From assembly GCF_988243305.1 (NCBI RefSeq), contig NZ_OZ547136.1: a stretch of 64,000 nt of DNA; one strand, written 5' to 3'. Each line of letters starts with the position of its first letter. Position 1 is the stretch's first letter. Of this stretch, positions 24,950 through 54,750 are shown one piece after another. The position numbers and the translations under genes were made by a program. The notes beneath the pieces are model-generated. The model did no database searches and was not told the origin of the DNA. It saw only the letters and a program-made list of their open reading frames with translations.

Positions 24950-25987
24950 ATGTTTTCCGCATTGCGCCACCGTACCGCTGCCCTGGCGCTCGGCGTATGC
25001 TTTATTCTCCCCGTACACGCCTCGTCACCTAAACCTGGCGATTTTGCTAATACCCAGGCACGACATATTGCTACTTTCTTTCCGGGACGCATGACCGGAA
25101 CTCCTGCAGAAATGTTATCTGCCGATTATATTCGCCAGCAGTTTCAGCAAATGGGTTATCGCAGTGATATTCGGACATTTAATAGTCGGTATATTTATAC
25201 CGCCCGCGATAATCGCAAGAGCTGGCATAACGTGACGGGAAGTACGGTGATTGCCGCTCATGAAGGCAAAGCGCCGCAGCAGATCATCATTATGGCGCAT
25301 CTGGATACTTACGCCCCGCTGAGCGATGCTGACGCCGATGCCAATCTCGGCGGGCTGACGTTACAAGGAATGGATGATAACGCCGCAGGTTTAGGTGTCA
25401 TGCTGGAACTGGCAGAACGCCTGAAAAATACGCCTACCGAGTATGGTATTCGATTTGTGGCGACCAGTGGTGAAGAGGAAGGGAAATTAGGTGCTGAGAA
25501 TTTACTCAAGCGGATGAGTGACACCGAAAAGAAAAATACGCTGCTGGTGATTAATCTCGATAACTTAATTGTTGGCGATAAATTGTATTTCAACAGCGGC
25601 GTAAAAACCCCTGAAGCAGTAAGGAAATTAACGCGCGACAGGGCGCTGGCAATTGCGCGTAGTCATGGAATTGCCGCAACGACCAATCCGGGTTTGAATA
25701 AAAATTATCCGAAGGGTACTGGCTGTTGTAATGACGCCGAAGTTTTCGACAAAGCCGGTATTGCCGTACTTTCGGTAGAAGCAACAAATTGGAATCTTGG
25801 GAATAAGGATGGTTATCAGCAACGCGCAAAAACAGCTGCATTCCCTGCGGGAAATAGCTGGCATGACGTAAGACTGGATAATCAACAACATATTGATAAG
25901 GCACTTCCAGGAAGAATAGAACGTCGCTGCCGTGATGTTATGCGGATAATGCTACCGCTGGTGAAGGAGCTGGCGAAGGCGTCTTGA
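24950..25987 (+). CDS. iap: Alkaline phosphatase isozyme conversion aminopeptidase Iap
   Basis: 345-aa ORF with signal peptide and M28 peptidase-like body; sits immediately before the CRISPR array as in the classic iap locus. Confidence 0.9.
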   Translation: MFSALRHRTAALALGVCFILPVHASSPKPGDFANTQARHIATFFPGRMTGTPAEMLSADYIRQQFQQMGYRSDIRTFNSRYIYTARDNRKSWHNVTGSTVIAAHEGKAPQQIIIMAHLDTYAPLSDADADANLGGLTLQGMDDNAAGLGVMLELAERLKNTPTEYGIRFVATSGEEEGKLGAENLLKRMSDTEKKNTLLVINLDNLIVGDKLYFNSGVKTPEAVRKLTRDRALAIARSHGIAATTNPGLNKNYPKGTGCCNDAEVFDKAGIAVLSVEATNWNLGNKDGYQQRAKTAAFPAGNSWHDVRLDNQQHIDKALPGRIERRCRDVMRIMLPLVKELAKAS

Positions 25988-26007: not shown

Positions 26008-28414
26008 GGGAGTTCTACCGCAGGGGCGGGGAACTCCAAGTGATATCCATCATCGCATCCAGTGCGTCCGGTTTATCCCCGCTGACGCGGGGAACTCCGT
26101 GTGGGAACTACGAGTAGGCCGTTTTCTCTCGGTTTATCCCCGCTGGCGCGGGGAACTCCAATATCCGCGCCGTACCCAGCAAATGCTGACGGTTTATCCC
26201 CGCTGGCGCGGGGAACTCTACCGCATATTCACCAAAGTCCTCTATTTTGTCGGTTTATCCCCGCTGACGCGGGGAACTCGAGCGGACGCTCGACGATAAC
26301 ACCGATTTGCAAGGTTTATCCCCGCTGGCGCGGGGAACTCCAATATCCGCGCCGTACCCAGCAAATGCTGACGGTTTATCCCCGCTGGCGCGGGGAACTC
26401 TACCGCATATTCACCAAAGTCCTCTATTTTGTCGGTTTATCCCCGCTGACGCGGGGAACTCGAGCGGACGCTCGACGATAACACCGATTTGCAAGGTTTA
26501 TCCCCGCTGACGCGGGGAACTCCCGTCAGGCCGCGTCAATCGTTTAGCCCACGGCGGTTTATCCCCGCTGACGCGGGGAACTCACATGGAGTACATCATG
26601 AACAGACCACTGACCCGGTTTATCCCCGCTGACGCGGGGAACTCAGATTTTAGATGAGATGAAGTTGAATAGTTTACGGTTTATCCCCGCTGACGCGGGG
26701 AACTCATAAATCATTCTTTTCTTTCATCACCTACGACCGGTTTATCCCCGCTGACGCGGGAAACTCCTGTAGACGTTCTTTGGTAATGGTTTTCATCACG
26801 GTTTATCCCCGCTGACGCGGGGAACTCAATACTACAAACATCAAATGCGTTATTTACTGCGGTTTATCCCCGCTGACGCGGGGAACTCTAAGCCGTGACG
26901 AGGGTCGCCGCTGGCGTCAACGGTTTATCCCCGCTGACGCGGGGAACTCTTACAGATGTAATAAATCACACATGTAATAGCCGGTTTATCCCCGCTGACG
27001 CGGGGAACTCGATCGGGAGGATTTTAAACGCTGGTCAATGGCCGGTTTATCCCCGCTGACGCGGGGAACTCAATTACCGGGTGTCTAGTGCTCATACGCA
27101 GCCCGGTTTATCCCCGCTGACGCGGGGAACTCAATTACTGGGTGTCTCGTGCTCATATGCAGCCCGGTTTATCCCCGCTGACGCGGGGAACTCTTTCCCC
27201 CATGCGGGAAGCGCGTGCGATTTCGCGGTTTATCCCCGCTGACGCGGGGAACTCTTTTAGGTGTGCTGAGATTATTTGTCGCGGCGCGGTTTATCCCCGC
27301 TGACGCGGGGAACTCTTATCAGCAGCCAGACCAGCATTCGGGGAATACGGTTTATCCCCGCTGACGCGGGGAACTCATGATCAAATCAGTGCCGAGCTGG
27401 TGCAGATGCGGTTTATCCCCGCTGACGCGGGGAACTCAAAACAGGTTTGCCTGTCGCCCTCCGGTCCACCGGTTTATCCCCGCTGACGCGGGGAACTCCA
27501 ATCCGTTTATTACTTTATTTCTGCCGCCTTCGGTTTATCCCCGCTGACGCGGGGAACTCCAACGTTTTGGTAATCAACGGAAGGAGCTTCGCGGTTTATC
27601 CCCGCTGACGCGGGGAACTCAATAAATTCAGGAGCGGTAACGATATATTTAACGGTTTATCCCCGCTGACGCGGGGAACTCGTAAAGGCGTTGCCCTGTT
27701 CCGTCGCTGTTGTCGGTTTATCCCCGCTGACGCGGGGAACTCATCCGTTAATTATTGAGAGAGCTATCAGCTATCGGTTTATCCCCGCTGACGCGGGGAA
27801 CTCACCATCAGTCCTTGAGCCGAGAAAATCGCCGCCGGTTTATCCCCGCTGACGCGGGGAACTCAGCTATATACGGGAGCAAGATTATAATATCTGCGGT
27901 TTATCCCCGCTGACGCGGGGAACTCTTTCGCCCAATCTTGCGCGCTCTGACCTATCTGGGTTTATCCCCGCTGACGCGGGGAACTCGTGGGTGGCTGCCG
28001 TCGCGGCTGGTGCTGCGGCGGTTTATCCCCGCTGACGCGGGGAACTCACTGAGTATTTGCCTCAAGTGATGTACTGGTCCGGTTTATCCCCGCTGACGCG
28101 GGGAACTCAATATCGCCGTCAATGCCAATATTTTTCCGCGCGGTTTATCCCCGCTGACGCGGGGAACTCGTGAAAATAGAGGAAGGGCGCATTATTGGCG
28201 GCGGTTTATCCCCGCTGACGCGGGGAACTCGCGTCAGAAGCGATTGAATCAATAGCGGATCACGGTTTATCCCCGCTGACGCGGGGAACTCGTCCATTTT
28301 CCCCCTGGAGGCTGTAATTCACCGCGGTTTATCCCCGCTGACGCGGGGAACTCTTATTCAGCCAACGCGGCGCGGGGCTTGTTTGCGGTTTATCCCCGCT
28401 GACGCGGGGAACTC
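26008..28414 (-). CRISPR. Type I-E CRISPR array: 39 full 29-bp repeats plus one degenerate terminal repeat, 39 spacers (36 unique)
   Basis: Repeat CGGTTTATCCCCGCTG(G/A)CGCGGGGAACTC on the plus strand at about 61-bp period from 26069 to 28386; degenerate repeat 26008-26036 at the iap end; leader at the cas2 end, so the array is transcribed on the minus strand. Confidence 0.97.
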
Positions 28415-28519
28415 TCTAAAAGTATACATTTGTTCTTAAAGCATTTTTTCCCATAAAAACAACCCACCAACCTTAATGTAACATTTCCTTATTATTAAAG
28501 ATCAGCTAATTCTTTGTTT
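28415..28519 (-). promoter_or_regulatory. CRISPR leader
   Basis: AT-rich about 105-bp segment between the last repeat and the cas2 stop. Confidence 0.7.
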
Positions 28520-29723
<1,204 letters not shown>

Positions 29724-29738
29724 TTTATTACACCTAAA

Positions 29739-30338
29739 TCACAGTGGAGCCAAAGATAGCAAGCCACATCCCATCGATTTAGCTGGCCCAATACCTTGCT
29801 GTACAAGATCTATTAACGCTGGCGCGTCGTTGATGGTGATCACCCCTTCAAAGCAAACCGTTTGAATCTTTCCACTTTTACCATCACCAGAAAAATACTG
29901 TGGCCGTTCCGATATGGGATGCACATCTTCAACGCGCGCCGCATTGCCCAATTTACGTTGCAACCACGCGATTTGTTCTGCTTCTTTTATTAACGGAACC
30001 CGACAGCGTTTAATATTCCCTTTACTATCCAGGCGCTTTTGATTGTCGAGAATAGTTTTGATCGGATTTGCCCGAAGCCGAAAATAGAGTGGAACACCAA
30101 CCTGAAGTTGAAATTCAACCTGTTTAGTTTTAATGACTGTCGCAACAGCAGTTGAAACAGGCATTTGCGCTGACTGCAATAAAACATGACAGCCTTCTGG
30201 TGTGTTTCGCTTCTCAACATGAAAAAGAAAATCACGAGCAGCATCCGGTCTGTTTGGAAATAAATGCCATAATCCCTGGTGAAGTTGGTAAAGATCCCTG
30301 CTCCAGGCCCTGGCAATGATGACTTTACTGAGATACAT
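29739..30338 (-). CDS. casE: crRNA endoribonuclease Cas6e (CasE)
   Basis: 199-aa ORF MYLSKVIIARAWSRDLYQLHQGLWHLFPNRPDAARDFLFHVEKR... Confidence 0.95.
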   Translation of the reverse strand: MYLSKVIIARAWSRDLYQLHQGLWHLFPNRPDAARDFLFHVEKRNTPEGCHVLLQSAQMPVSTAVATVIKTKQVEFQLQVGVPLYFRLRANPIKTILDNQKRLDSKGNIKRCRVPLIKEAEQIAWLQRKLGNAARVEDVHPISERPQYFSGDGKSGKIQTVCFEGVITINDAPALIDLVQQGIGPAKSMGCGLLSLAPL

Positions 30339-30999
30339 CCATACCTCCTTTAATCACATACCATTCTCGGGAAGCAAATTGTCGAGGTAAGGTGATCATC
30401 GGTTCGTCGCGCGCCGTAAATTTTAAATGATGCCCTGTAACTGATTCCTCACTATAAATATCGCCGCCAACGGGCTCATAATTTAATAGCGCCTTCTGAG
30501 GATCCGATGCCTGACATGTCCCCAAAAAAAGCGGGTGTGTTAGTGGGCAACTTCTCCGCCCCAGGTAGGGTGTATACCGAGGCTTTAATACTGCTTTTTC
30601 AAGTTCTGAGATAACCATCGTTGCATGGGGTGTTAACCAGAGAGCGACGGTAAAGGAGGCATCACATAAATATTCGCGCCATGTTTGAATCGTTTCATGA
30701 CTTTTCAAACCACGGTAATCTTCTCGCGCTCCAAGGACTGTATGGTAATCACGCAACCCCGTTACAGACACACGACGATCGTCAAGAATGAGTTCATCGC
30801 AGCGCACTGCAAATTGCACACTCTCTGATAACACCTGTAATGAAGAAGTATCATCACGTTGGATCCCAAGACAAGCCCCGAGTAGCCCTAATAACCCGCT
30901 TCGGGTCGGAAAACTTCCGGTAGGTCGCGTTCCTTCAAAGGTCGGCAGCCCCCAGGCTTGCATTGGCCCAGCAAGCCGCAAGATCAAATAAGATCTCAT
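30325..30999 (-). CDS. casD: Cascade subunit Cas5e (CasD)
   Basis: ORF contains MRSYLILRLAGPMQAWGLPTFEGTRPTG...; start placed at the second ATG. Confidence 0.93.
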   Translation of the reverse strand: MRSYLILRLAGPMQAWGLPTFEGTRPTGSFPTRSGLLGLLGACLGIQRDDTSSLQVLSESVQFAVRCDELILDDRRVSVTGLRDYHTVLGAREDYRGLKSHETIQTWREYLCDASFTVALWLTPHATMVISELEKAVLKPRYTPYLGRRSCPLTHPLFLGTCQASDPQKALLNYEPVGGDIYSEESVTGHHLKFTARDEPMITLPRQFASREWYVIKGGMDVSQ

Positions 31000-31001
31000 G
31001 T

Positions 31002-32093
31002 TCATGCCTCGCCATTATTACGAACCCAGGATTTTAACTGTTCTAAAGTAGGCATTTGTTTAACTTGAGCAGTAATTGGGTCTACATCAGATAAGCTGAA
31101 TTGCGCAGCAGCTCCGTTCAGACCATATCCATTGGCAACGCGATCCCAATATTGATTAAACGCCTGTATAGACGGTTGCAAAAAGCCATCTTTCGCTTTA
31201 ACAGCTTTTTCAAAAGCATTTGCCATAGAAAGTGGCATATCGGAGAAATTAACCATTACCATATCCGCAGGGTTAAAAGCGGCATAAGTACGCTGTTTTG
31301 CTCCAGGGACCTCTGTTGCCAGCATATGAACAACATTGGTTGCAATTTCCAGAGCCTGCTCCCTGGAGGCACCACCTAAATTTTCCTGAAGTTGAGCGAG
31401 GTTAATGTTGGCGTAACGATAAAAAACACCCGATGAAAATTCCTGAGTTCCCAGATGTGCAGAACCTTGTTCCTGTAAATCATCTACAGCGGTGAACCAG
31501 TCAATATCTGAATCAACCTGATGAGTAGTGATCGCATGCGCAATGGACATTGCACCATCAACTTTTCCCAACTCACTCATCATGCCGCTGGTTGCCATTC
31601 TTCCGCTAAGCGCAATATCAACACCCTGCTGTAAATTCACACGTATGGCGGCAATATCTTCCTTAAGAACTTTGAGCAGCTTTTTATCATCCAGATTATC
31701 AGCCTCTGCTTTTGCAACCTGCTCACAGAACCAGGCTATTTCTCCCACAACCCAGGGAGTAACCGCATCGGCAGAAATCTTTTCGGCTTCATCAACTAAT
31801 TTACCGGAGAGCAGCGCTAATGTCTTATCGATGATTTTTTGGTCAAAACGTTCACCAAGTTTTTGCCGAAGAACATCACGTAATTGTGCAAGATGAATTG
31901 TTCTGAGACTGGATTCACCAATATTTTGTGCGTAATAATCACTTTTACGCATCGCACGTTTAAGGCTTTGACTTGAAATTCTTACTCGTCTTTTCCCGCC
32001 GAAAATAGCGTCTTTCTGCATGTTCATATCGTCGCGGTTCAGACATGAAGGGCTGTGAGAGATCAGAACATGAATATTGATAAAGTTAGACAT
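31002..32093 (-). CDS. casC: Cascade backbone subunit Cas7e (CasC)
   Basis: 363-aa [52 protein letters not shown]... Confidence 0.95.
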
Positions 32094-32105
32094 AGAAAGG
32101 TTTCC

Positions 32106-32588
32106 TTACGCATTTTTGTTTGTGGTCAATACAAAATCTTCCAGAAGTTGCTGGCGTTCGCGCTTTCCCCACCAGGTCAACATCCTGGCCATTAATGGCC
32201 AGTCAAGTACGGGTTCGGCGTGAGTAAGTAATCGACGTAACTGGACCATATCGGCTGTTCTGTCAGCCCGAATTAATTGAAAGATACGGCGCTCGTTAAT
32301 TCTTCCACTATTGGCTAAAGCTCTTCCCAACGAGATACCTGTTGTTTGCTCCGGTTTTTTGTCCTGATGTCGGATGACATTCTTTCCTGCGCTCAGGCAA
32401 AACACCATGCGCAAAAGAGCCTGCTGGTGACGTGGGTTTTCCCAACCAAAAGGTTGCACCAACCGATAAAACGCAGGGATATCGCGTAATTCATCAGGTT
32501 CTGAAACACGTCTAATTTGCGCACATGCTCCATTATCCAGTTGTTGCCAGGCTCGATATAAAGCCATTGCATCAATTTCATCAGCCAT
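32106..32588 (-). CDS. casB: Cascade small subunit Cse2 (CasB)
   Basis: 160-aa ORF MADEIDAMALYRAWQQLDNGACAQIRRVSEPDELRDIPAFYRLVQPFG... Confidence 0.95.
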   Translation of the reverse strand: MADEIDAMALYRAWQQLDNGACAQIRRVSEPDELRDIPAFYRLVQPFGWENPRHQQALLRMVFCLSAGKNVIRHQDKKPEQTTGISLGRALANSGRINERRIFQLIRADRTADMVQLRRLLTHAEPVLDWPLMARMLTWWGKRERQQLLEDFVLTTNKNA

Positions 32589-34089
32589 TTGATGGCCCTC
32601 CTTGCGGTTTTAACTCCCGTAAATGTTTGTATAGCGTGGCGCGGGCAAGCGCTAATGTGCTTATTAATTTAGGATGATGTGCATAGGGAGCTACAGATTG
32701 ATTAAATAGCATTTCACACAATTGATGAAGTTTGTCTCGTAAATCAGCTATTACCTCATCAGCCTGGGAAAAATTAATTTTCGCCAATACATCTGGAATT
32801 AATAATTCACTCTGTCGATAGAAATGCCTTTCTGCAGTCTCATGAACAGAGACTCCGGCCCCTTTGAAGTCTTTATTTTTAAACCCTTCTGCAAAGGTAT
32901 ATAACGCCTTGCGTAAGGCTGTTTTATACCCCAAACCAACAGTCACTATTTCGTTTATAACATTGCCGTATTGTTGCCACCCCTGATTAAACATCAGCAC
33001 ATCATGACGTCGTTCAAGAATAGATGCTTGATTATTACGATATCCCCCCATAATCAATTCAAGAGGACTTTGCGGCGCAATATTTCTGAATTGATTCACA
33101 ACCGCCGCCACGCGATTTCCATTTTCATTTTGAATAATCTTATCTACCACAACTCGGCTGATTTGCGTCCATGATGGTGCGGAGGTGGTGAAAGCAAGAA
33201 ATTTTTCCTCAACCTTCCCTTTCTTGACTGTTACCAGACAAGGGGAATGCGGATGGGGCCATAGTCCATTAACTGTAAAGGTAAATTTTTCCTTAAGAAA
33301 ACCGGTATAACGCAAATTGCTTTCCTGTCCACAGCAAGAACATTTACCAATCCCAATGGGATCGCATAGTTCAATATGCGCTGGTTGCCAGAATAAACCA
33401 CGGACAAACCCAATTGACGAAGCTGGCACAGATTCATTGGGCTTGATAGGCTTAATCCAGGTAGGTTGGTTTTCCGTATGTAATTCATTGGGAAATTGTT
33501 TTTGAAGACGAGGTATTGTGAGGACATTGAGTAATACCGTCGAGCGAAGATCGATCCCACATACGAAGGTGGTTATAGGTGTTCCTCCACGTAAACCGCT
33601 TTTAAAGCCACCACCAAAACCAGGTGCCTGATTCGCCTGGTTGAATAACGCAATCGCAGTGCATCCACCACATAATGCTTCACCCTGCCCCGGTTGATTG
33701 ACAAATGCACAATTCGTCGCGCCGCTTACCCCAGCCAACAGTTTTTCCATTGGAGTCACATCATTTGCTTTGACACCTTTGGTCTGCATAAAGGGATGTT
33801 CTGCGTGATTAAGGTAGAACATATCTATCCACGGCGCGATGAGTTGTTGAAACTCATCTTCAGTGAGCGGATTCATTATGCGATGTCGAAATTCAACGTC
33901 ATCTTTTGCCGGGGCGATAATTTGTCCAATGCAAACCAGCAGTGCTAAAGCGGCCAGTTCCATATCGTCACGGGGCAAACTTAATCGCCACTGATCTCTA
34001 CTGCAGTATAGCGATTGCAGATTTAGGATTTGGACTTTCCCCCCGTTTCGCGGGCGTACAGGGATCCAGTTATCAATAAGCAAATTCAT
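32581..34089 (-). CDS. casA: Cascade large subunit Cse1 (CasA)
   Basis: 502-aa ORF MNLLIDNWIPVRPRNGGKVQILNLQSLYCSRDQWRLSLPRDDMELAA... Confidence 0.95.
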   Translation of the reverse strand: MNLLIDNWIPVRPRNGGKVQILNLQSLYCSRDQWRLSLPRDDMELAALALLVCIGQIIAPAKDDVEFRHRIMNPLTEDEFQQLIAPWIDMFYLNHAEHPFMQTKGVKANDVTPMEKLLAGVSGATNCAFVNQPGQGEALCGGCTAIALFNQANQAPGFGGGFKSGLRGGTPITTFVCGIDLRSTVLLNVLTIPRLQKQFPNELHTENQPTWIKPIKPNESVPASSIGFVRGLFWQPAHIELCDPIGIGKCSCCGQESNLRYTGFLKEKFTFTVNGLWPHPHSPCLVTVKKGKVEEKFLAFTTSAPSWTQISRVVVDKIIQNENGNRVAAVVNQFRNIAPQSPLELIMGGYRNNQASILERRHDVLMFNQGWQQYGNVINEIVTVGLGYKTALRKALYTFAEGFKNKDFKGAGVSVHETAERHFYRQSELLIPDVLAKINFSQADEVIADLRDKLHQLCEMLFNQSVAPYAHHPKLISTLALARATLYKHLRELKPQGGPSNG

Positions 34090-34504
34090 TTGTTCTCCTT
34101 CATATGCTCCGACATTTCTCCTGCATTTCTATACGTCGGAACACTTCCGTTATCGGTAAAAACAAAGAAAAAATACGGCGTAATTAATTCAATAATCACA
34201 TTCACTGCAAAAATATATTCATTGGTTTAATACAATTAACCTATGCATATATTAAGATGTGTTGAATTGTTTAAAGACAATAATGCATGCATTTCAAATC
34301 TGCAAGTTATTCGTTTTATTATCAAAGAAATTTTTTAGTTATAATAATTACCATAAATTTTATTACATAAAATATTCATACTGTGAATATAAAATCTCAT
34401 ACCGGGAAATTAAAAGAAGATGTACATTGTGCACCTTCCCTACTTAAGTAGGGATAAACCGTTATTGGTCTTGTTATCGTCATTGATACCAATCATTCCC
34501 GAAG
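34090..34504 (-). promoter_or_regulatory. AT-rich casA-cas3 intergenic region; expected site of the Cascade operon promoter and divergent antisense promoter
   Basis: 415-bp strongly AT-rich non-coding segment directly upstream of casA; in E. coli type I-E loci this region carries the H-NS-repressed, LeuO-activated promoter (established knowledge; exact -10/-35 elements not pinned down here). Confidence 0.45.
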
Positions 34505-37171
34505 TTATTTGGGATTTGCAGGGATGACTCTGGTCATCCCTTCATCCCGAGTGTAGGTAATAACAATATTATTACCCTGCCAGATCCATCCATCCTGATT
34601 CTGTTTCCCTTCCAGCCAAAGTAACCCATCTTCATCTACTACTTCAGAAAAACTACGTTTCCAGGTGAAGGGTACATTGACGCGATTAAGTGCTAACGCC
34701 TCATACTGCTGTTCATGACTTAGGTCCTCGTAGACCTGGCCATCGAGCAGTTGTTTACCTGAAGACGTTTGTACATAAGGCAATAATGGCAGGCTCATTT
34801 CCCCATCCCTCGTTACCGCAAGAATGGTTTCATCGTTATCCTGCAAGCTATATTCTTCAGCCCACTGCAGAACCTTACGAGCCTTGAACCTTTTTTCACA
34901 CTCGGCGCTTTCAAACTTATCCATGCCTTTGATGACCCATTCTGGCTCATCCATTTCCGCATCATCGTAAATGCTATCCAGCCATTGCCGGTAGGCATCA
35001 GGGAAAAATAAGGATGCTCCATTAAGTTCCTCAATATGTTGCTGCGTCCGCCACATGACTCTAACGTTGCTATAAATATGCTCATGTCGTCCGTAACCTT
35101 CGCCATCAGGCAGCAAAATGGTGGCAAGAGGAATCTCAAAACCAACGGGGCGATATTTACGATGATGGCGATGTAAACGGCCCAATCGTTGGAAAAGCAA
35201 ATCTGCGGGACAATGCTGAGTAATTAACCAATCAAAATCAACGTCGAGTGATTGTTCCACGACCTGTGTGGCAACAAGTATTCTTCCAACATTTCGCTCC
35301 CCATTTTTCCCAAAATTACTAATAACACGATTCTCTTTTTCACGGCGATCGTTCAGCGTAAAGCGCGCATGAAACAAATCTATATCTACTTGCGTGTTAT
35401 TTAGTTCCTTTAACCGTTGGTGGCATAGTTGTGCAACATCAACCAAATTGCAGATAAGACAGACTTGTGCACCCGCATTTGCCGCTGCGATCATTCGCTC
35501 TAACATCGTAAGGTCAGGTAACATGTCAGCTAAATAAATAGGTTCTGGCTGAATCGAAAAGCGGGGCGGGAGTTGTTCTGGATGAGCTAACAGATCAAAA
35601 CGTTGCGCACCATTCACACCTCGCCAGTTAATGAGTGGATATGCGGAGTTATTTTCCTCTGGATCTGTATGCAGACCATAAGTATCCAGAAGTTTCTGTT
35701 TTTGTTTCATTGGTAGAGTTGCGGAAAGAAGAATAACACTCCCCCCCACATCAGCCTGAGCCTTGAGCACAGCCTCCAGCAAGCCGTTCATATACGTGTC
35801 GTAAGCATGAACTTCATCAACAATTAAAACACTTCGACCAATTCCCAAACCACGGATAAAGCGGTGTTTAACTGGCAATACCGATATCAACACCTGATCA
35901 ATCGTGCAAACGCCTATTTGCCCAAGAAACACTTTCTTATTGCTTTGTGACAACCATTGGCAACACTGAACCCACGCTTCTTCTTGCCCCTGCTCAGTAA
36001 ATGCGCGTGATTTTATTGATTGAAAAAGGTGGTTAAAACGTGAATTACCATGAGCAAGAATAAGATTTGGGGAGGTAAATAAACGGCTCGCGTTCGCTTC
36101 CATTCTGCTGAGCATTGCATTTGCAGTAGCTTGTGTAGGGAGGGCAAAAATAACACTATCCGCAAGTTGTTGGTCAATAAGTTTCCAGGCATAGGCCAGC
36201 GCTGTTTCGGTTTTACCTGATCCCGTAGGTGCCTCAATCACCGTCAGCCCGGGAGCTGTAGGAAGAGCATCAACCAACACCTGTAATTGTCTTGGTTGAT
36301 AGCCATTGTCCAGTAAGGCATGTACGCCGTCATAACTACGCTTATTTGATACAAGGCCACTCAACTCAAGTACCCGACACGCATCCTGTTGTCTATCCTG
36401 AAAATATTTTCTTAGCGCTTGTATGCCTGAAGGTGCATCTTCTTTGAATAGAAAGGTATCCGTTGTGGTCCAGGAACCTAACCAGTCAGCAAGCGAGCAA
36501 AAACCTGCTAACAATGATGAACAATCAGGTGGTATATCGTTTATAGATAACCCGGCTGGTGTTAAAAATAATGCTTCGAGTACAGATATCCACTCCTCAC
36601 GAGCCTGTTTATCTTGCGCAGCATAAGATGCCAGAGAAGCTGGCATTTCCCAACGCGACTTATCTTGATCCTGGGAATGTAATATAAAACCATGATGTCC
36701 TGTAACGGCCTCTACCCAAGGAAACCAGGACTCATAAGGATGAGGAGCGGCATCAAAAAAACTGAAAAAATCCCCGGGAGATTGCTCTGAAAGTGAATCC
36801 TGGTTAAACCAATACAGACCGGCTGCACCATGATTAAATTTACGGCACATTTGTGTTGATGGACCATTAAGTGATGGCGTTGCAGGATTTAATTTCAGCC
36901 AACTTTCTGCTGATTTATATTGGAATCGTATATCAAACTTTCCGATATCATGAAGGGCAATGAAAAATAACAGCCAGGCTTTCACCTTCTGTTTTGATAG
37001 CATTTCATTTCGGCAAAAAGCATTTTGTAGTACGACTGATTGATCCCACCAGCAATCTGCAACAGCTGCAACATCCAGGCAATGATAAATCAACAGATGA
37101 ATATCATTTCCTTTCGTCAGGCTTTTTGAGGATTTCCCCCAGTAATGACATATATATTTAAAAGGTTCCAT
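34505..37171 (-). CDS. cas3: CRISPR-associated nuclease/helicase Cas3 (type I-E)
   Basis: 888-aa ORF MEPFKYICHYWGKSSKSLTKGNDIHLLIYHCLDVAAV... with HD domain followed by DEAD/DEAH helicase motifs (APTGSGKT, DEVH). Confidence 0.95.
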   Translation of the reverse strand: MEPFKYICHYWGKSSKSLTKGNDIHLLIYHCLDVAAVADCWWDQSVVLQNAFCRNEMLSKQKVKAWLLFFIALHDIGKFDIRFQYKSAESWLKLNPATPSLNGPSTQMCRKFNHGAAGLYWFNQDSLSEQSPGDFFSFFDAAPHPYESWFPWVEAVTGHHGFILHSQDQDKSRWEMPASLASYAAQDKQAREEWISVLEALFLTPAGLSINDIPPDCSSLLAGFCSLADWLGSWTTTDTFLFKEDAPSGIQALRKYFQDRQQDACRVLELSGLVSNKRSYDGVHALLDNGYQPRQLQVLVDALPTAPGLTVIEAPTGSGKTETALAYAWKLIDQQLADSVIFALPTQATANAMLSRMEANASRLFTSPNLILAHGNSRFNHLFQSIKSRAFTEQGQEEAWVQCCQWLSQSNKKVFLGQIGVCTIDQVLISVLPVKHRFIRGLGIGRSVLIVDEVHAYDTYMNGLLEAVLKAQADVGGSVILLSATLPMKQKQKLLDTYGLHTDPEENNSAYPLINWRGVNGAQRFDLLAHPEQLPPRFSIQPEPIYLADMLPDLTMLERMIAAANAGAQVCLICNLVDVAQLCHQRLKELNNTQVDIDLFHARFTLNDRREKENRVISNFGKNGERNVGRILVATQVVEQSLDVDFDWLITQHCPADLLFQRLGRLHRHHRKYRPVGFEIPLATILLPDGEGYGRHEHIYSNVRVMWRTQQHIEELNGASLFFPDAYRQWLDSIYDDAEMDEPEWVIKGMDKFESAECEKRFKARKVLQWAEEYSLQDNDETILAVTRDGEMSLPLLPYVQTSSGKQLLDGQVYEDLSHEQQYEALALNRVNVPFTWKRSFSEVVDEDGLLWLEGKQNQDGWIWQGNNIVITYTRDEGMTRVIPANPK

Positions 37172-53324: not shown

Positions 53325-53370
53325 GTGAGGAAGGCCGGGCGGGAAACTGCCCGGCCTGAACATACCTGAA

Positions 53371-53508
53371 TGGTTATCCCCGCTGACGTGGGGAACATAA
53401 GTTCGACAACTTAAAAAATGATAACAAGTCCGGTTTATCCCCGCTGATGCAGGGAACATAATAAAAACTTTAACTAGTTCGGTTTATCCCTGTTGTTACA
53501 AGGAATAT
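53371..53508 (-). CRISPR. Degenerate CRISPR remnant (three decayed repeat-like units)
   Basis: TGGTTATCCCCGCTGACGTGGGGAACAT / CGGTTTATCCCCGCTGATGCAGGGAACAT / CGGTTTATCCCTGTTGTTACAAGGAATAT separated by 32-nt and about 20-nt spacers. Confidence 0.7.
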
Positions 53509-53962: not shown

Positions 53963-54418
53963 TGGTTTATCCCCGCTGGCGCGGGGAACTCCGTCAGTGT
54001 GCCAGTTGCTACTGTTTCCCATACGGTTTATCCCCGCTGACGCGGGGAACTCATCAGTGATATCCAACATTGCGGAGCTAAACGCGGTTTATCCCCGCTG
54101 GCGCGGGGAACTCTATAAATGTGCCATATACGGCGTTTGTTGCCTCGGTTTATCCCCGCTGGCGCGGGGAACTCCTCCCGGTGATGCGGGTTATGTGGCC
54201 TGCCGCCGGTTTATCCCCGCTGGCGCGGGGAACTCTTCGCCGCGTCAACAATTCGGACCTGTAAATCCGGTTTATCCCCGCTGGCGCGGGGAACTCATCC
54301 GGCGAACGCGCTACAGAGTACAGTTCACCGGTTTATCCCCGCTGGCGCGGGGAACTCGGAAACCGCCCCGGCGGTGGTTAGCTGTTTGCCGGTTTATCCC
54401 CGCTGGCGCGGGGAACTC
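53963..54418 (-). CRISPR. Second type I-E CRISPR array: 8 repeats, 7 spacers
   Basis: Same 29-bp repeat at 61-bp period (53963, 54024, 54085, 54146, 54207, 54268, 54329, 54390); AT-rich leader-like sequence beginning TCTCTAAA at the high-coordinate end, as in array 1. Confidence 0.93.
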
Positions 54419-54750
54419 TCTAAACATAACCTATTATTAATTAATAATTTTTTAAGCCAGTCACAATCTACCAACTTTATAGTATCACACAAACAACACA
54501 TCCATTATGTTAAAGAGCACTTAATCCATTGATTGAAAAGCTAAATATTTAAAGTAATCCTATACCGACTAAAATCTACCAAACTTTACCGCAATAATTT
54601 TCACTCCAGCGAAAAATTAATGCCGCAGAATTTGTAGAGAATGCTAATGATTAGCCCTGGATGGGTAAAATGGAGGAGTTTTCAGAGGCGACAAACAATA
54701 TAAATGAGTAGAAATCTTTACAGGTTCCACCCATTTATAACGCTTATAAA
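54419..54750 (-). promoter_or_regulatory. Leader of the second CRISPR array
   Basis: AT-rich non-coding region adjoining the first repeat on the transcription-proximal side; starts with the same TCTCTAAA junction seen at the array-1 leader. Confidence 0.55.

What the first reader, a model, noticed from the sequence alone, without database searches (positions are those of the whole stretch)
26280..28325. Off-register spacers and atypical PAM-derived repeat nucleotides
In type I-E the first repeat nucleotide next to the spacer (C on this strand) is copied from the PAM. Three repeats start with a different base: A at 26312 and 26494 (both after spacer C), and G at 27958. One spacer is 33 nt (28292-28324) and spacer A is 31 nt. 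These are signatures of slipped or non-canonical-PAM acquisitions, which are usually a small minority of events.
Basis: partly seen in the sequence, partly recalled or inferred. Interest (0 to 1): 0.3.

Follow-up and report, generated by a model that had tools for sequence, protein, structure and literature searches.

The report
Templated repeat-end variants in CRISPR array
Two odd repeat bases and one over-long spacer in this E. coli CRISPR array are ordinary, already-described by-products of how new spacers are cut out and pasted in, and I could show this by finding the prophage sequences they were copied from.

Summary
Window 26008-28414 is the iap-side type I-E CRISPR array of an E. coli, transcribed on the minus strand. 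Repeats start with A at 26312 and 26494 and with G at 27958. One spacer is 33 nt and one (present twice) is 31 nt. The two A repeats are one event, because 26312 is a copy made by an exact 182-bp tandem duplication.

Donor sequences for both odd repeats lie in one rare prophage of E. coli JNE151685. Spacer 27926-27957 matches 32/32 and is followed by GTT (PAM AAC). Spacer C matches 31/32 and is followed by AAT (PAM ATT, or a flipped AGG prespacer). In both, the flanking base equals the odd repeat base and no AAG lies within 2 nt. They are templated, non-canonical and non-slipped acquisitions, not point mutations.

The 33-nt spacer aligns without gaps to a phage Dam-methylase site that is followed by CTT in 66 of 70 homologues. 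[quoted passage not shown] The donor of the 31-nt spacer was not found.

All of this matches published type I-E adaptation behaviour, so the finding is correct but ordinary. Side observations include seven spacers against that one prophage and a +2-slipped self spacer against bcsE.

The parts
26008..28414 (-). Type I-E CRISPR array (E. coli CRISPR1, iap side): 39 intact 29-nt repeats, a degenerate terminal repeat at 26008-26036, and 39 spacers (36 unique)
   Evidence: repeat hairpin; flanks 99-100 % identical to E. coli NY1601 and Z1323HEC0462
28415..28519 (-). AT-rich leader; new spacers enter at this end, so higher + coordinates are younger spacers
   Evidence: same leader in other E. coli
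28520..29723 (-). cas2e (28520-28804) and cas1e (28806-29723), the integrase that inserts 33-bp prespacers
   Evidence: TIGR01873 2e-41; TIGR03638 1.7e-113; 100 % identical to Z1323HEC0462
29739..37171 (-). cas6e, cas5e, cas7e, cse2, cse1 and cas3: the complete type I-E interference module
27958..27986 (-). Repeat R32, with G instead of C at 27958 (transcribed strand ends ...AAACCC)
   Evidence: base equals the donor flank base
27926..27957 (-). Spacer S31, the partner of R32. Exact 32/32 donor in the JNE151685 prophage, flank GTT, so PAM AAC; not slipped and not flipped
26494..26522 (-). Repeat R08, with A instead of C at 26494 (transcribed strand ends ...AAACCT); the original event, shared with NY1601
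26312..26340 (-). Repeat R05, a chimera: A at position 1 as in R08 and G at position 17 as in R02. It is the junction of the 182-bp duplication
26462..26493 (-). Spacer C (second copy at 26280-26311). Donor 31/32 in the same prophage, flank AAT, so PAM ATT; alternatively a flipped prespacer with AGG on the other side
   Evidence: orientation ambiguity per PMC4027179
26131..26494 (.). Two exact 182-bp tandem copies, each holding spacers A, B and C with their repeats
   Evidence: 100 % identity; single copy in NY1601
28292..28324 (-). 33-nt spacer S37. Gapless match (best 30/33) to a site in a phage Dam-family methyltransferase gene, flank CTT, extra base G at the PAM-distal end
26159..26189 (-). 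31-nt spacer A (second copy at 26341-26371); donor not found; inherited, since it is also 31 nt in NY1601
27987..28018 (-). Spacer S32, the next-younger neighbour of S31. Same prophage, opposite strand, PAM AAG, single mismatch at the PAM-adjacent base
26219..26250 (-). Spacer B (second copy at 26401-26432); same prophage, 31/32, PAM AGG
27011..27042 (-). Spacer with an exact 32/32 donor in the same prophage (record 2225555-2225586), PAM AAG; serves as a canonical control
27377..27408 (-). Self-matching spacer, 32/32 to chromosomal bcsE. Flank CGC (PAM GCG) with AAG 2 nt further upstream, which is a +2 slip
54114..54267 (-). Second array (53963-54418). Spacers 54114-54145 and 54236-54267 target the same prophage, both with PAM AAG; the latter's donor starts 36 nt after the S31 donor on the same strand

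Best explanation
This is a normal E. coli type I-E CRISPR array, and its irregularities are footprints of imperfect spacer capture by Cas1-Cas2. The integrase inserts a 33-bp fragment. 32 bp become the spacer and the 33rd base, normally the G of an AAG PAM, completes the adjoining repeat. That repeat base is therefore templated by the donor DNA.

Two fragments were taken from a rare HK97-like phage at sites without AAG. S31 sits next to AAC. Spacer C sits next to ATT, or was an AGG prespacer inserted backwards. The adjoining repeats therefore end in C and T (G and A on the + strand). A later repeat-to-repeat recombination or replication slippage duplicated three units, which copied the A-repeat and created the chimeric repeat R05.

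The 33-nt spacer was chosen at a proper AAG but cut one base too long at the PAM-distal end. The 31-nt spacer is most likely the converse, one base short at the PAM-distal end.

Shown here: coordinates, the duplication, inheritance, donor matches and donor flanks. Inferred: the acquisition mechanism (from published work), the origin of spacer A, and the flank of the true S37 donor (from homologues).
For: Array and cas genes. The source is E. coli (99-100 % flank identity).

S31: a 32/32 donor in the JNE151685 prophage followed by GTT, and the repeat base is G.

Spacer C: a 31/32 donor in the same prophage followed by AAT, and the repeat base is A.

No AAG lies within 2 nt of either donor.

Controls: nine window spacers whose repeat starts with C have a mapped or inferred donor, and in every case the flanking base is C. 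Seven of the nine flanks are CTT.

An independent natural case in four other strains behaves the same way. Spacer CAATACGACC... has a G-start repeat, and the homologous site in phages LLS and ST64B is followed by G.

The odd base is not propagated to the next-younger repeat: R09 and R33 start with C, as reported in PMC3338789.

S37: 70 homologous sites align without gaps over all 33 nt. The first base G is invariant and the flank is CTT in 66 of 70.

Literature: the last repeat nucleotide is PAM-derived, with AAT giving CCT and AAA giving CCA (PMC3338789). 34-bp prespacers are about 1.1 % of usage, and 80-87 % of them are AAG-associated with an extra PAM-distal base. 32-bp prespacers are 0.3 %, and 88-96 % of them lack the PAM-distal base (bioRxiv 10.1101/2020.02.10.942821). 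Non-AAG protospacers insert in both orientations at comparable frequencies (PMC4027179).
Against: The donors of S31 and C come from a single prophage in one genome, with no relatives available to check how stable the flanks are. Spacer C matches 31/32, not exactly. The true donor of S37 was not found; its flank is inferred from homologues that are at most 91 % identical. No donor was found for spacer A, so its shortness could equally be a later 1-bp deletion. AAC and ATT are unusual choices compared with published primed-adaptation data, where the third PAM base is strongly G.
Confidence: 0.85

Rival explanations
1. Post-integration mutation: the spacers were acquired canonically (AAG, 32 nt), and the repeat bases and spacer lengths changed later by point mutation or 1-bp indels.
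For: The array does carry ordinary repeat mutations (G to A at 26761 in R12; A/G polymorphism at position 17). Spacer A contains short runs (CCC, AAA) and has no donor against which to test a deletion.
Against: Both odd bases equal the donor flank base, and the donor flanks are not CTT. The extra base of S37 matches an invariant G in 70 of 70 homologues, and its T- and C-runs have the same length as in the homologues. Variants are enriched at repeat position 1 (binomial P about 0.007, my calculation).
Confidence: 0.05
2. Slipped acquisition: Cas1-Cas2 recognised a genuine AAG but cut 1-2 nt out of register, giving AGN, NAA or similar apparent PAMs and an odd repeat base.
For: Slips account for about 60 % of non-AAG primed acquisitions in E. 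coli. This array does contain one slipped spacer: the bcsE spacer has AAG 2 nt upstream of the expected place.
Against: The ten bases upstream of the donors are TTTTTTAAAC for S31 and GTACTCGATT for spacer C, and neither contains AAG at offsets -2 to +2. S37 has CTT exactly in register in 66 of 70 homologues.
Confidence: 0.03
3. Flipped prespacer for spacer C: a 33-bp fragment selected at an AGG motif was integrated backwards. The odd repeat base A/T would then come from the PAM-distal end of the fragment, not from a PAM.
For: In the transcribed orientation spacer C ends in C and its donor continues CT, so the far side reads AGG. C at +32 is the published signature of reversed insertion, and non-AAG protospacers insert in both orientations at comparable frequencies (PMC4027179). 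If flipped, the fragment lies on the strand and side expected for priming by the older neighbouring spacer B, whose own PAM is AGG.
Against: One of four interference-proficient motifs appears on the far side by chance in about 1 of 16 cases. The sequence alone cannot tell which end was recognised. S31 shows no such signature: its far side reads ATT.
Confidence: 0.35
4. Sequencing or assembly artefact: the odd bases, odd lengths and the 182-bp duplication are errors in a repetitive region.
For: Repeat arrays are prone to assembly errors, and the duplication is perfectly identical, so a collapse or expansion artefact cannot be excluded for the duplication alone.
Against: The A-start repeat and the 31-nt spacer A occur independently in NY1601. 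The G at 27958 and the extra G of S37 match donor sequences. The chimeric R05 is what a real repeat-to-repeat crossover predicts.
Confidence: 0.02

Closest known systems
PAM-derived last repeat nucleotide in E. coli K-12 type I-E adaptation (Swarts et al. 2012, PMC3338789; also Datsenko 2012 and Goren 2012, from my own knowledge)
   Same: An odd last repeat base co-occurs with a non-consensus PAM and equals the protospacer-adjacent base (AAT gives CCT, AAA gives CCA). The variant is not propagated to the next new repeat. A natural CCT repeat exists in K-12 CRISPR 2.3.
   Different: Here the events are natural rather than laboratory-made, the donor is a prophage rather than a plasmid, and the motifs are AAC and ATT. 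One variant was later copied by an array duplication.
Non-canonical prespacer lengths in E. coli primed adaptation (bioRxiv 10.1101/2020.02.10.942821)
   Same: 34-bp prespacers (a 33-nt spacer plus the PAM G) are mostly AAG-associated with one extra PAM-distal base, which is the configuration inferred for 28292-28324.
   Different: The flank is inferred from homologues that are at most 91 % identical, not from the actual donor. The configuration of the 31-nt spacer is untested.
Slipping and flipping errors of Cas1-Cas2 (Shmakov et al. 2014, PMC4027179; the bioRxiv study above)
   Same: The bcsE spacer fits a +2 slip. Spacer C carries the C-at-+32 signature of reverse insertion.
   Different: Neither focal odd repeat is explained by a slip from AAG. 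The flipped reading of spacer C would involve AGG, not AAG.
Partial activity of non-consensus PAMs in type I-E interference (Westra et al. 2013, PMC3764190)
   Same: GTT (equivalent to AAC), the motif next to the S31 donor, gave partial resistance in plasmid transformation (efficiency of transformation below 10^-2).
   Different: AAT (equivalent to ATT, spacer C) and CGC (equivalent to GCG, the bcsE spacer) are not among the active or partially active motifs listed in the passage I read. Nothing was tested here.

Membership tests
Type I-E CRISPR-Cas locus (E. coli CRISPR1 / 2.1) | Full cas3-cse1-cse2-cas7-cas5-cas6e-cas1-cas2 gene set next to the array | tested here: met
   all eight proteins exceed the NCBIfam type I-E cut-offs. 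One search gives coordinates.
Type I-E CRISPR-Cas locus (E. coli CRISPR1 / 2.1) | 29-nt repeats with a 7-bp hairpin, 32-nt spacers and 61-bp periodicity | tested here: met
   (minimum free energy -15.1 kcal/mol; the last-base variants do not change the fold).
Type I-E CRISPR-Cas locus (E. coli CRISPR1 / 2.1) | Position between iap and cas2, with the conserved leader and the ancestral terminal spacer | tested here: met
Type I-E CRISPR-Cas locus (E. coli CRISPR1 / 2.1) | AAG as the predominant PAM of the donors | tested here: met
   7 of 11 window spacers with mapped or inferred donors have AAG. The others are AGG, ATT, AAC and GCG.
Templated (PAM-derived) repeat-end polymorphism | The odd last repeat base equals the donor base adjacent to the protospacer | tested here: met
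   G at 27958 with flank G. A at 26494 with flank A. A third natural case in other strains shows the same.
Templated (PAM-derived) repeat-end polymorphism | The variant is confined to the one repeat and is not copied into the next new repeat | tested here: met
   R09 (26555) and R33 (28019) start with C. The second A, at 26312, is explained by the duplication.
Slipped acquisition | A genuine AAG 1-2 nt from the expected position | tested here: not met
   None for S31 or spacer C, and S37 is in register. It is met only by the non-focal bcsE spacer.
Flipped acquisition | C at the spacer's 3' end followed by TT in the donor (a reversed AAG) | tested here: not met
   Spacer C has C followed by CT, a reversed AGG, so a flipped AGG remains possible. 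S31 ends in A.
PAM-distal length variant (34-bp prespacer) | AAG in register at the PAM end, with the extra templated base at the far end | tested here: met
   gapless over 33 nt, first base G in 70 of 70, flank CTT in 66 of 70. This rests on homologues, not on the exact donor.
PAM-distal length variant (32-bp prespacer), spacer A | AAG in register, with one base missing at the far end | tested here: inconclusive
   No donor in phages, plasmids, E. coli genomes, IMG/VR or JGI metagenomes, nor in the JNE151685 prophage.
Primed adaptation | Consecutive spacers from one target, clustered, with the type I-E strand rule | tested here: inconclusive
   Of the seven spacers against this prophage, six have donors within 6.4 kb of one another. 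The pairs S31/S32 and S31/54236 obey the strand rule; 54114 does not, and spacer C does only if flipped. Mosaic conservation of the prophage could also produce the clustering.

The most novel reading that the evidence does not exclude
The array may be a natural record of repeated, primed type I-E immunity in wild E. coli against one rare HK97-like phage. Weak, non-AAG spacers (B with AGG, S31 with AAC) would have been followed immediately by further spacers from the same 6-kb tail region (C; S32; 54236 in the second array). If so, the supposedly H-NS-silenced system would have been active in nature recently: three of the seven donors match exactly or with one mismatch next to the PAM. The odd repeat bases would then mark the priming-prone founder spacers.
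Probability: 0.3. Interest if true: 0.4.

Novelty: already known. Interest (0 to 1): 0.15.

Why it matters
It matters little for discovery. The rule that the last repeat base is templated, and the classes of capture error (non-consensus motif, slip, flip, PAM-distal length error), were established experimentally in E. coli K-12 between 2012 and 2020.

The value here is confirmatory. A wild array, read against a natural prophage donor, shows the same signatures. It also shows that repeat-end variants can be used as a cheap marker of non-AAG acquisitions, with two caveats. Array duplications inflate the count, and slipped spacers whose flank happens to be G (the bcsE spacer) stay invisible.

The seven spacers against one rare prophage are a modest hint that E. 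coli type I-E adaptation does operate in nature.

Tried and rejected
Whole-array and repeat-masked megablast against 5,426 complete E. coli genomes. No genome has this array; the closest share nine spacers (NY1601), six spacers (Z1323HEC0462) and two pieces (A30).

BLAST of six focal spacers (the four in question plus spacers B and 27499-27530) against phages and plasmids. Only weak Dam-methylase hits for the 33-nt spacer.

The one-row-per-record BLAST table hid the spacer B and C donors in JNE151685 ('3 places in record'). They appeared only when I scanned the fetched prophage locally.

Exact or wobble-degenerate pattern scans for spacer C, all with 0 hits: IMG/VR, GTDB genomes and JGI metagenomes.

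Scans for spacer A, 0 hits: IMG/VR and metagenomes. Scans for the exact S37 and S31 donors in IMG/VR, 0 hits.

Relatives of the prophage tail module. None in E. coli genomes beyond JNE151685 and none in phage records, so flank conservation could not be checked.

All-spacer search against phages. Only one spacer hit, to a Stenotrophomonas phage at 30/32, which I did not pursue.

A fuzzy-regex scan with indels timed out and was replaced by blastn-short.

Rejected readings for the focal features: point mutation, a slip from AAG, and a flipped AAG.
Full report
**What is there**

Window 26008-28414 is a CRISPR array of 39 intact 29-nt repeats, with + strand consensus CGGTTTATCCCCGCTGACGCGGGGAACTC. 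A degenerate terminal repeat sits at 26008-26036, and there are 39 spacers.

To the left lies iap (24950-25987, +). To the right lie an AT-rich leader (28415-28519), then cas2e, cas1e, cas6e, cas5e, cas7e, cse2, cse1 and cas3 on the minus strand. All eight Cas proteins exceed the NCBIfam type I-E cut-offs.

The cysD-iap flank is 99.1-99.2 % identical, and the leader-cas2-cas1 stretch 99.9-100 % identical, to E. coli NY1601 and Z1323HEC0462. The source is therefore E. coli, and this is its CRISPR1 (2.1) array.

The array is transcribed on the minus strand. The first + strand base of each repeat is thus the last base of the transcribed repeat and belongs with the spacer to its left. The repeat RNA folds into the expected 7-bp hairpin, and changing the last base does not alter the fold.

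**Checking the observation**

All stated coordinates hold.
- R05 begins with A at 26312, R08 with A at 26494, and R32 with G at 27958.
- Spacer 28292-28324 is 33 nt.
- Spacer A is 31 nt, at 26159-26189 and again at 26341-26371.

However, 26131-26312 and 26313-26494 are an exact 182-bp tandem duplication that carries spacers A, B and C. E. coli NY1601 has A, B and C once, with the same A-start repeat after C and the same 31-nt spacer A. The three odd repeats are therefore two events, and the A/31-nt features are inherited.

R05 is a chimera, with position 1 as in R08 and position 17 as in R02. That is what a repeat-to-repeat crossover or replication slip predicts.

The array has four independent repeat variants. 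Two are at position 1 of 29, which gives a binomial P of about 0.007 by my own calculation. The position-17 A/G variant lies in the hairpin loop. The G-to-A change at 26761 keeps a U-G pair in the stem.

As a baseline I parsed 11 other E. coli CRISPR1 arrays.
- They hold 94 unique units.
- 92 units start with C.
- 93 spacers are 32 nt.

The exceptions are spacer C and spacer A themselves, in NY1601, plus one other G-start unit.

**Finding the donors**

BLAST of the focal spacers against 5,426 complete E. coli genomes gave one non-CRISPR exact hit. Spacer 27926-27957 (S31) matches 32/32 in a prophage of strain JNE151685. The donor is followed by GTT and then TAAAAAA. That flank corresponds to PAM AAC on the protospacer strand, and its adjacent base G is exactly the odd base at 27958.

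I then scanned the fetched prophage locally with every spacer of both arrays in the window. Six further spacers match it, making seven with S31:

| Spacer | Match | Flank on window + orientation | PAM |
|---|---|---|---|
| B (26219-26250) | 31/32 | CCT | AGG |
| C (26280-26311) | 31/32 | AAT | ATT |
| 27011-27042 | 32/32 | CTT | AAG |
| S31 (27926-27957) | 32/32 | GTT | AAC |
| S32 (27987-28018) | 31/32, mismatch at the PAM-adjacent base | CTT | AAG |
| 54114-54145 (second array) | 28/32 | CTT | AAG |
| 54236-54267 (second array) | 30/32 | CTT | AAG |

For spacer C the adjacent flank base is A, which equals the odd base at 26494 and 26312.

The ten bases upstream of the S31 and C donors are TTTTTTAAAC and GTACTCGATT. 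Neither has AAG at offsets of -2 to +2, so these are not slips.

The same rule holds for every other spacer I could map. All nine C-repeat spacers with a mapped or inferred donor have a C flank.

An unrelated G-start unit found in four other strains also follows it. That spacer is CAATACGACC..., and the homologous site in phages LLS and ST64B is followed by G.

**The 33-nt spacer**

No exact donor exists in any collection searched. The spacer does match a site in a Dam-family methyltransferase gene of lambdoid prophages and phage-plasmids.

I collected 80 IMG/VR loci encoding that protein. Together with the loci already held, they gave 70 homologous sites.
- The sites align to all 33 nt without gaps, with a best match of 30/33.
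- The T- and C-runs have the same length as in the spacer.
- The first (PAM-distal) base G is invariant.
- The flank is CTT in 66 of 70 sites.

The PAM end is therefore canonical and in register. The extra base is a templated base at the far end. It is neither a slip nor an insertion.

**The 31-nt spacer**

No donor was found in phages, plasmids, E. coli genomes, IMG/VR, JGI metagenomes or the JNE151685 prophage. By analogy I expect a missing PAM-distal base, but a later 1-bp deletion is not excluded.

**Mechanism**

Published work on E. coli K-12 explains every feature.
- Swarts et al. showed that the last repeat nucleotide is derived from the PAM. Non-consensus PAMs give matching repeat variants (AAT gives CCT, AAA gives CCA), and the variant is not propagated to the next repeat. 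K-12 itself carries a natural CCT repeat (PMC3338789). In the window, R09 and R33 are indeed canonical.
- A primed-adaptation study reports 34-bp prespacers at about 1.1 % of usage, 80-87 % of them AAG-associated with an extra PAM-distal base. It reports 32-bp prespacers at 0.3 %, 88-96 % of them lacking that base. It defines +1, -1 and +2 slips (bioRxiv 10.1101/2020.02.10.942821).
- Shmakov et al. found that non-AAG protospacers are inserted in both orientations at comparable frequencies, with C at +32 as the signature of reversal (PMC4027179).

Spacer C ends in C, and its donor continues CT, so the far side reads AGG. I cannot tell whether C was taken at ATT in the forward orientation or at AGG and flipped. 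In the flipped case the odd base comes from the fragment's far end rather than from a PAM. Either way it is templated.

Westra et al. list GTT (equivalent to AAC) among the motifs that give partial resistance (PMC3764190). S31 may therefore be weakly active.

**Comparison, novelty and verdict**

The locus is a full member of type I-E, and its irregularities are members of known classes of adaptation error. Nothing here departs from published behaviour.

The most interesting residue is contextual.
- Seven spacers from two arrays target one prophage whose tail module occurs in 1 of 5,426 E. coli genomes and in no phage record.
- Six of the seven donors lie within 6.4 kb.
- S31 is followed by S32 on the opposite strand on the PAM-distal side. 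Spacer 54236's donor starts 36 nt after the S31 donor on the same strand on the PAM-proximal side. Both arrangements are as the type I-E priming rule predicts.

This is compatible with natural primed adaptation seeded by weak-PAM spacers. However, 54114 breaks the rule, and mosaic conservation of the prophage could mimic the clustering. I rate this reading at about 0.3.

Noticed in passing
window 27377-27408: This spacer is a 32/32 match to chromosomal bcsE in about 5,400 of 5,426 E. coli genomes, so it is a likely self-derived spacer. In K-12 the flank is CGC (PAM GCG) with AAG 2 nt further upstream, which makes it a +2 slip. That motif is not among the active PAMs listed in the PMC3764190 passage I read, which would explain why the spacer is tolerated.
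   Followed up: partly
window 26219-26311, 27011-27042, 27926-28018, 54114-54145, 54236-54267; prophage NZ_AP027258.1 about 2191025-2229150 (L091/L092): Seven spacers from both arrays target one HK97-like prophage of E. coli JNE151685, and six of the donors lie in a 6.4-kb tail region. That tail module occurs in only 1 of 5,426 E. coli genomes and in no phage record. The adjacency and strand pattern partly fit primed adaptation.
   Followed up: partly
window 26131-26494: An exact 182-bp tandem duplication of three spacer-repeat units, with a chimeric junction repeat R05 (26312-26340) that locates the crossover between repeat positions 2 and 16. NY1601 has a single copy.
   Followed up: yes
window 27072-27103 and 27133-27164: Two adjacent spacers differ at only 3 of 32 positions, which suggests the same protospacer sampled from two phage variants. 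Both are also present in NY1601. A prophage donor in strain Z1323PEC0010 matches the second spacer 31/32 with a CTT flank.
   Followed up: partly
window 27499-27530; L003 about 2927-2958; L010 120-151: Three E. coli strains carry overlapping spacers from one protospacer region, in registers shifted by 3 and 9 nt (strain A30 and strain H1). The overlaps reveal CTT flanks for the window spacer and the A30 spacer.
   Followed up: partly
L002 2500-2930 (E. coli Z1323HEC0462) versus window 26889-27896: Shared spacers occur in permuted order. The 27621 and 27682 spacers precede the 26889 and 27011 spacers in Z1323HEC0462. This implies array rearrangement (duplication followed by deletion, or recombination) rather than simple leader-end growth.
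   Followed up: no
window 26738-26766 (R12, base 26761): A G-to-A repeat variant changes C6 to U in the crRNA hairpin stem but keeps a U-G pair (minimum free energy -12.2 versus -15.1 kcal/mol). The position-17 A/G polymorphism (R02, R03, R05, R06) lies in the loop.
   Followed up: yes
window 53370-53459 and 53963-54418: A second type I-E array with 8 repeats and a leader at 54419 onward, plus a degenerate two-repeat remnant 500 bp away. Its terminal repeat starts with T (53963).
   Followed up: partly
window 27011-27042: Besides its exact prophage donor, this spacer matches Stenotrophomonas phages BUCT708 and BUCT709 at 30/32, an unexpected host range for the target gene.
   Followed up: no
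L094-L097 (E. coli FORC_031, T16R, PM4 and strain 81): Another natural G-start repeat follows spacer CAATACGACCGCGAATAAACATGATGTGATCA. The homologous site in phages LLS and ST64B (a DNA methyltransferase gene) is followed by G, so the same templating rule holds there.
   Followed up: yes
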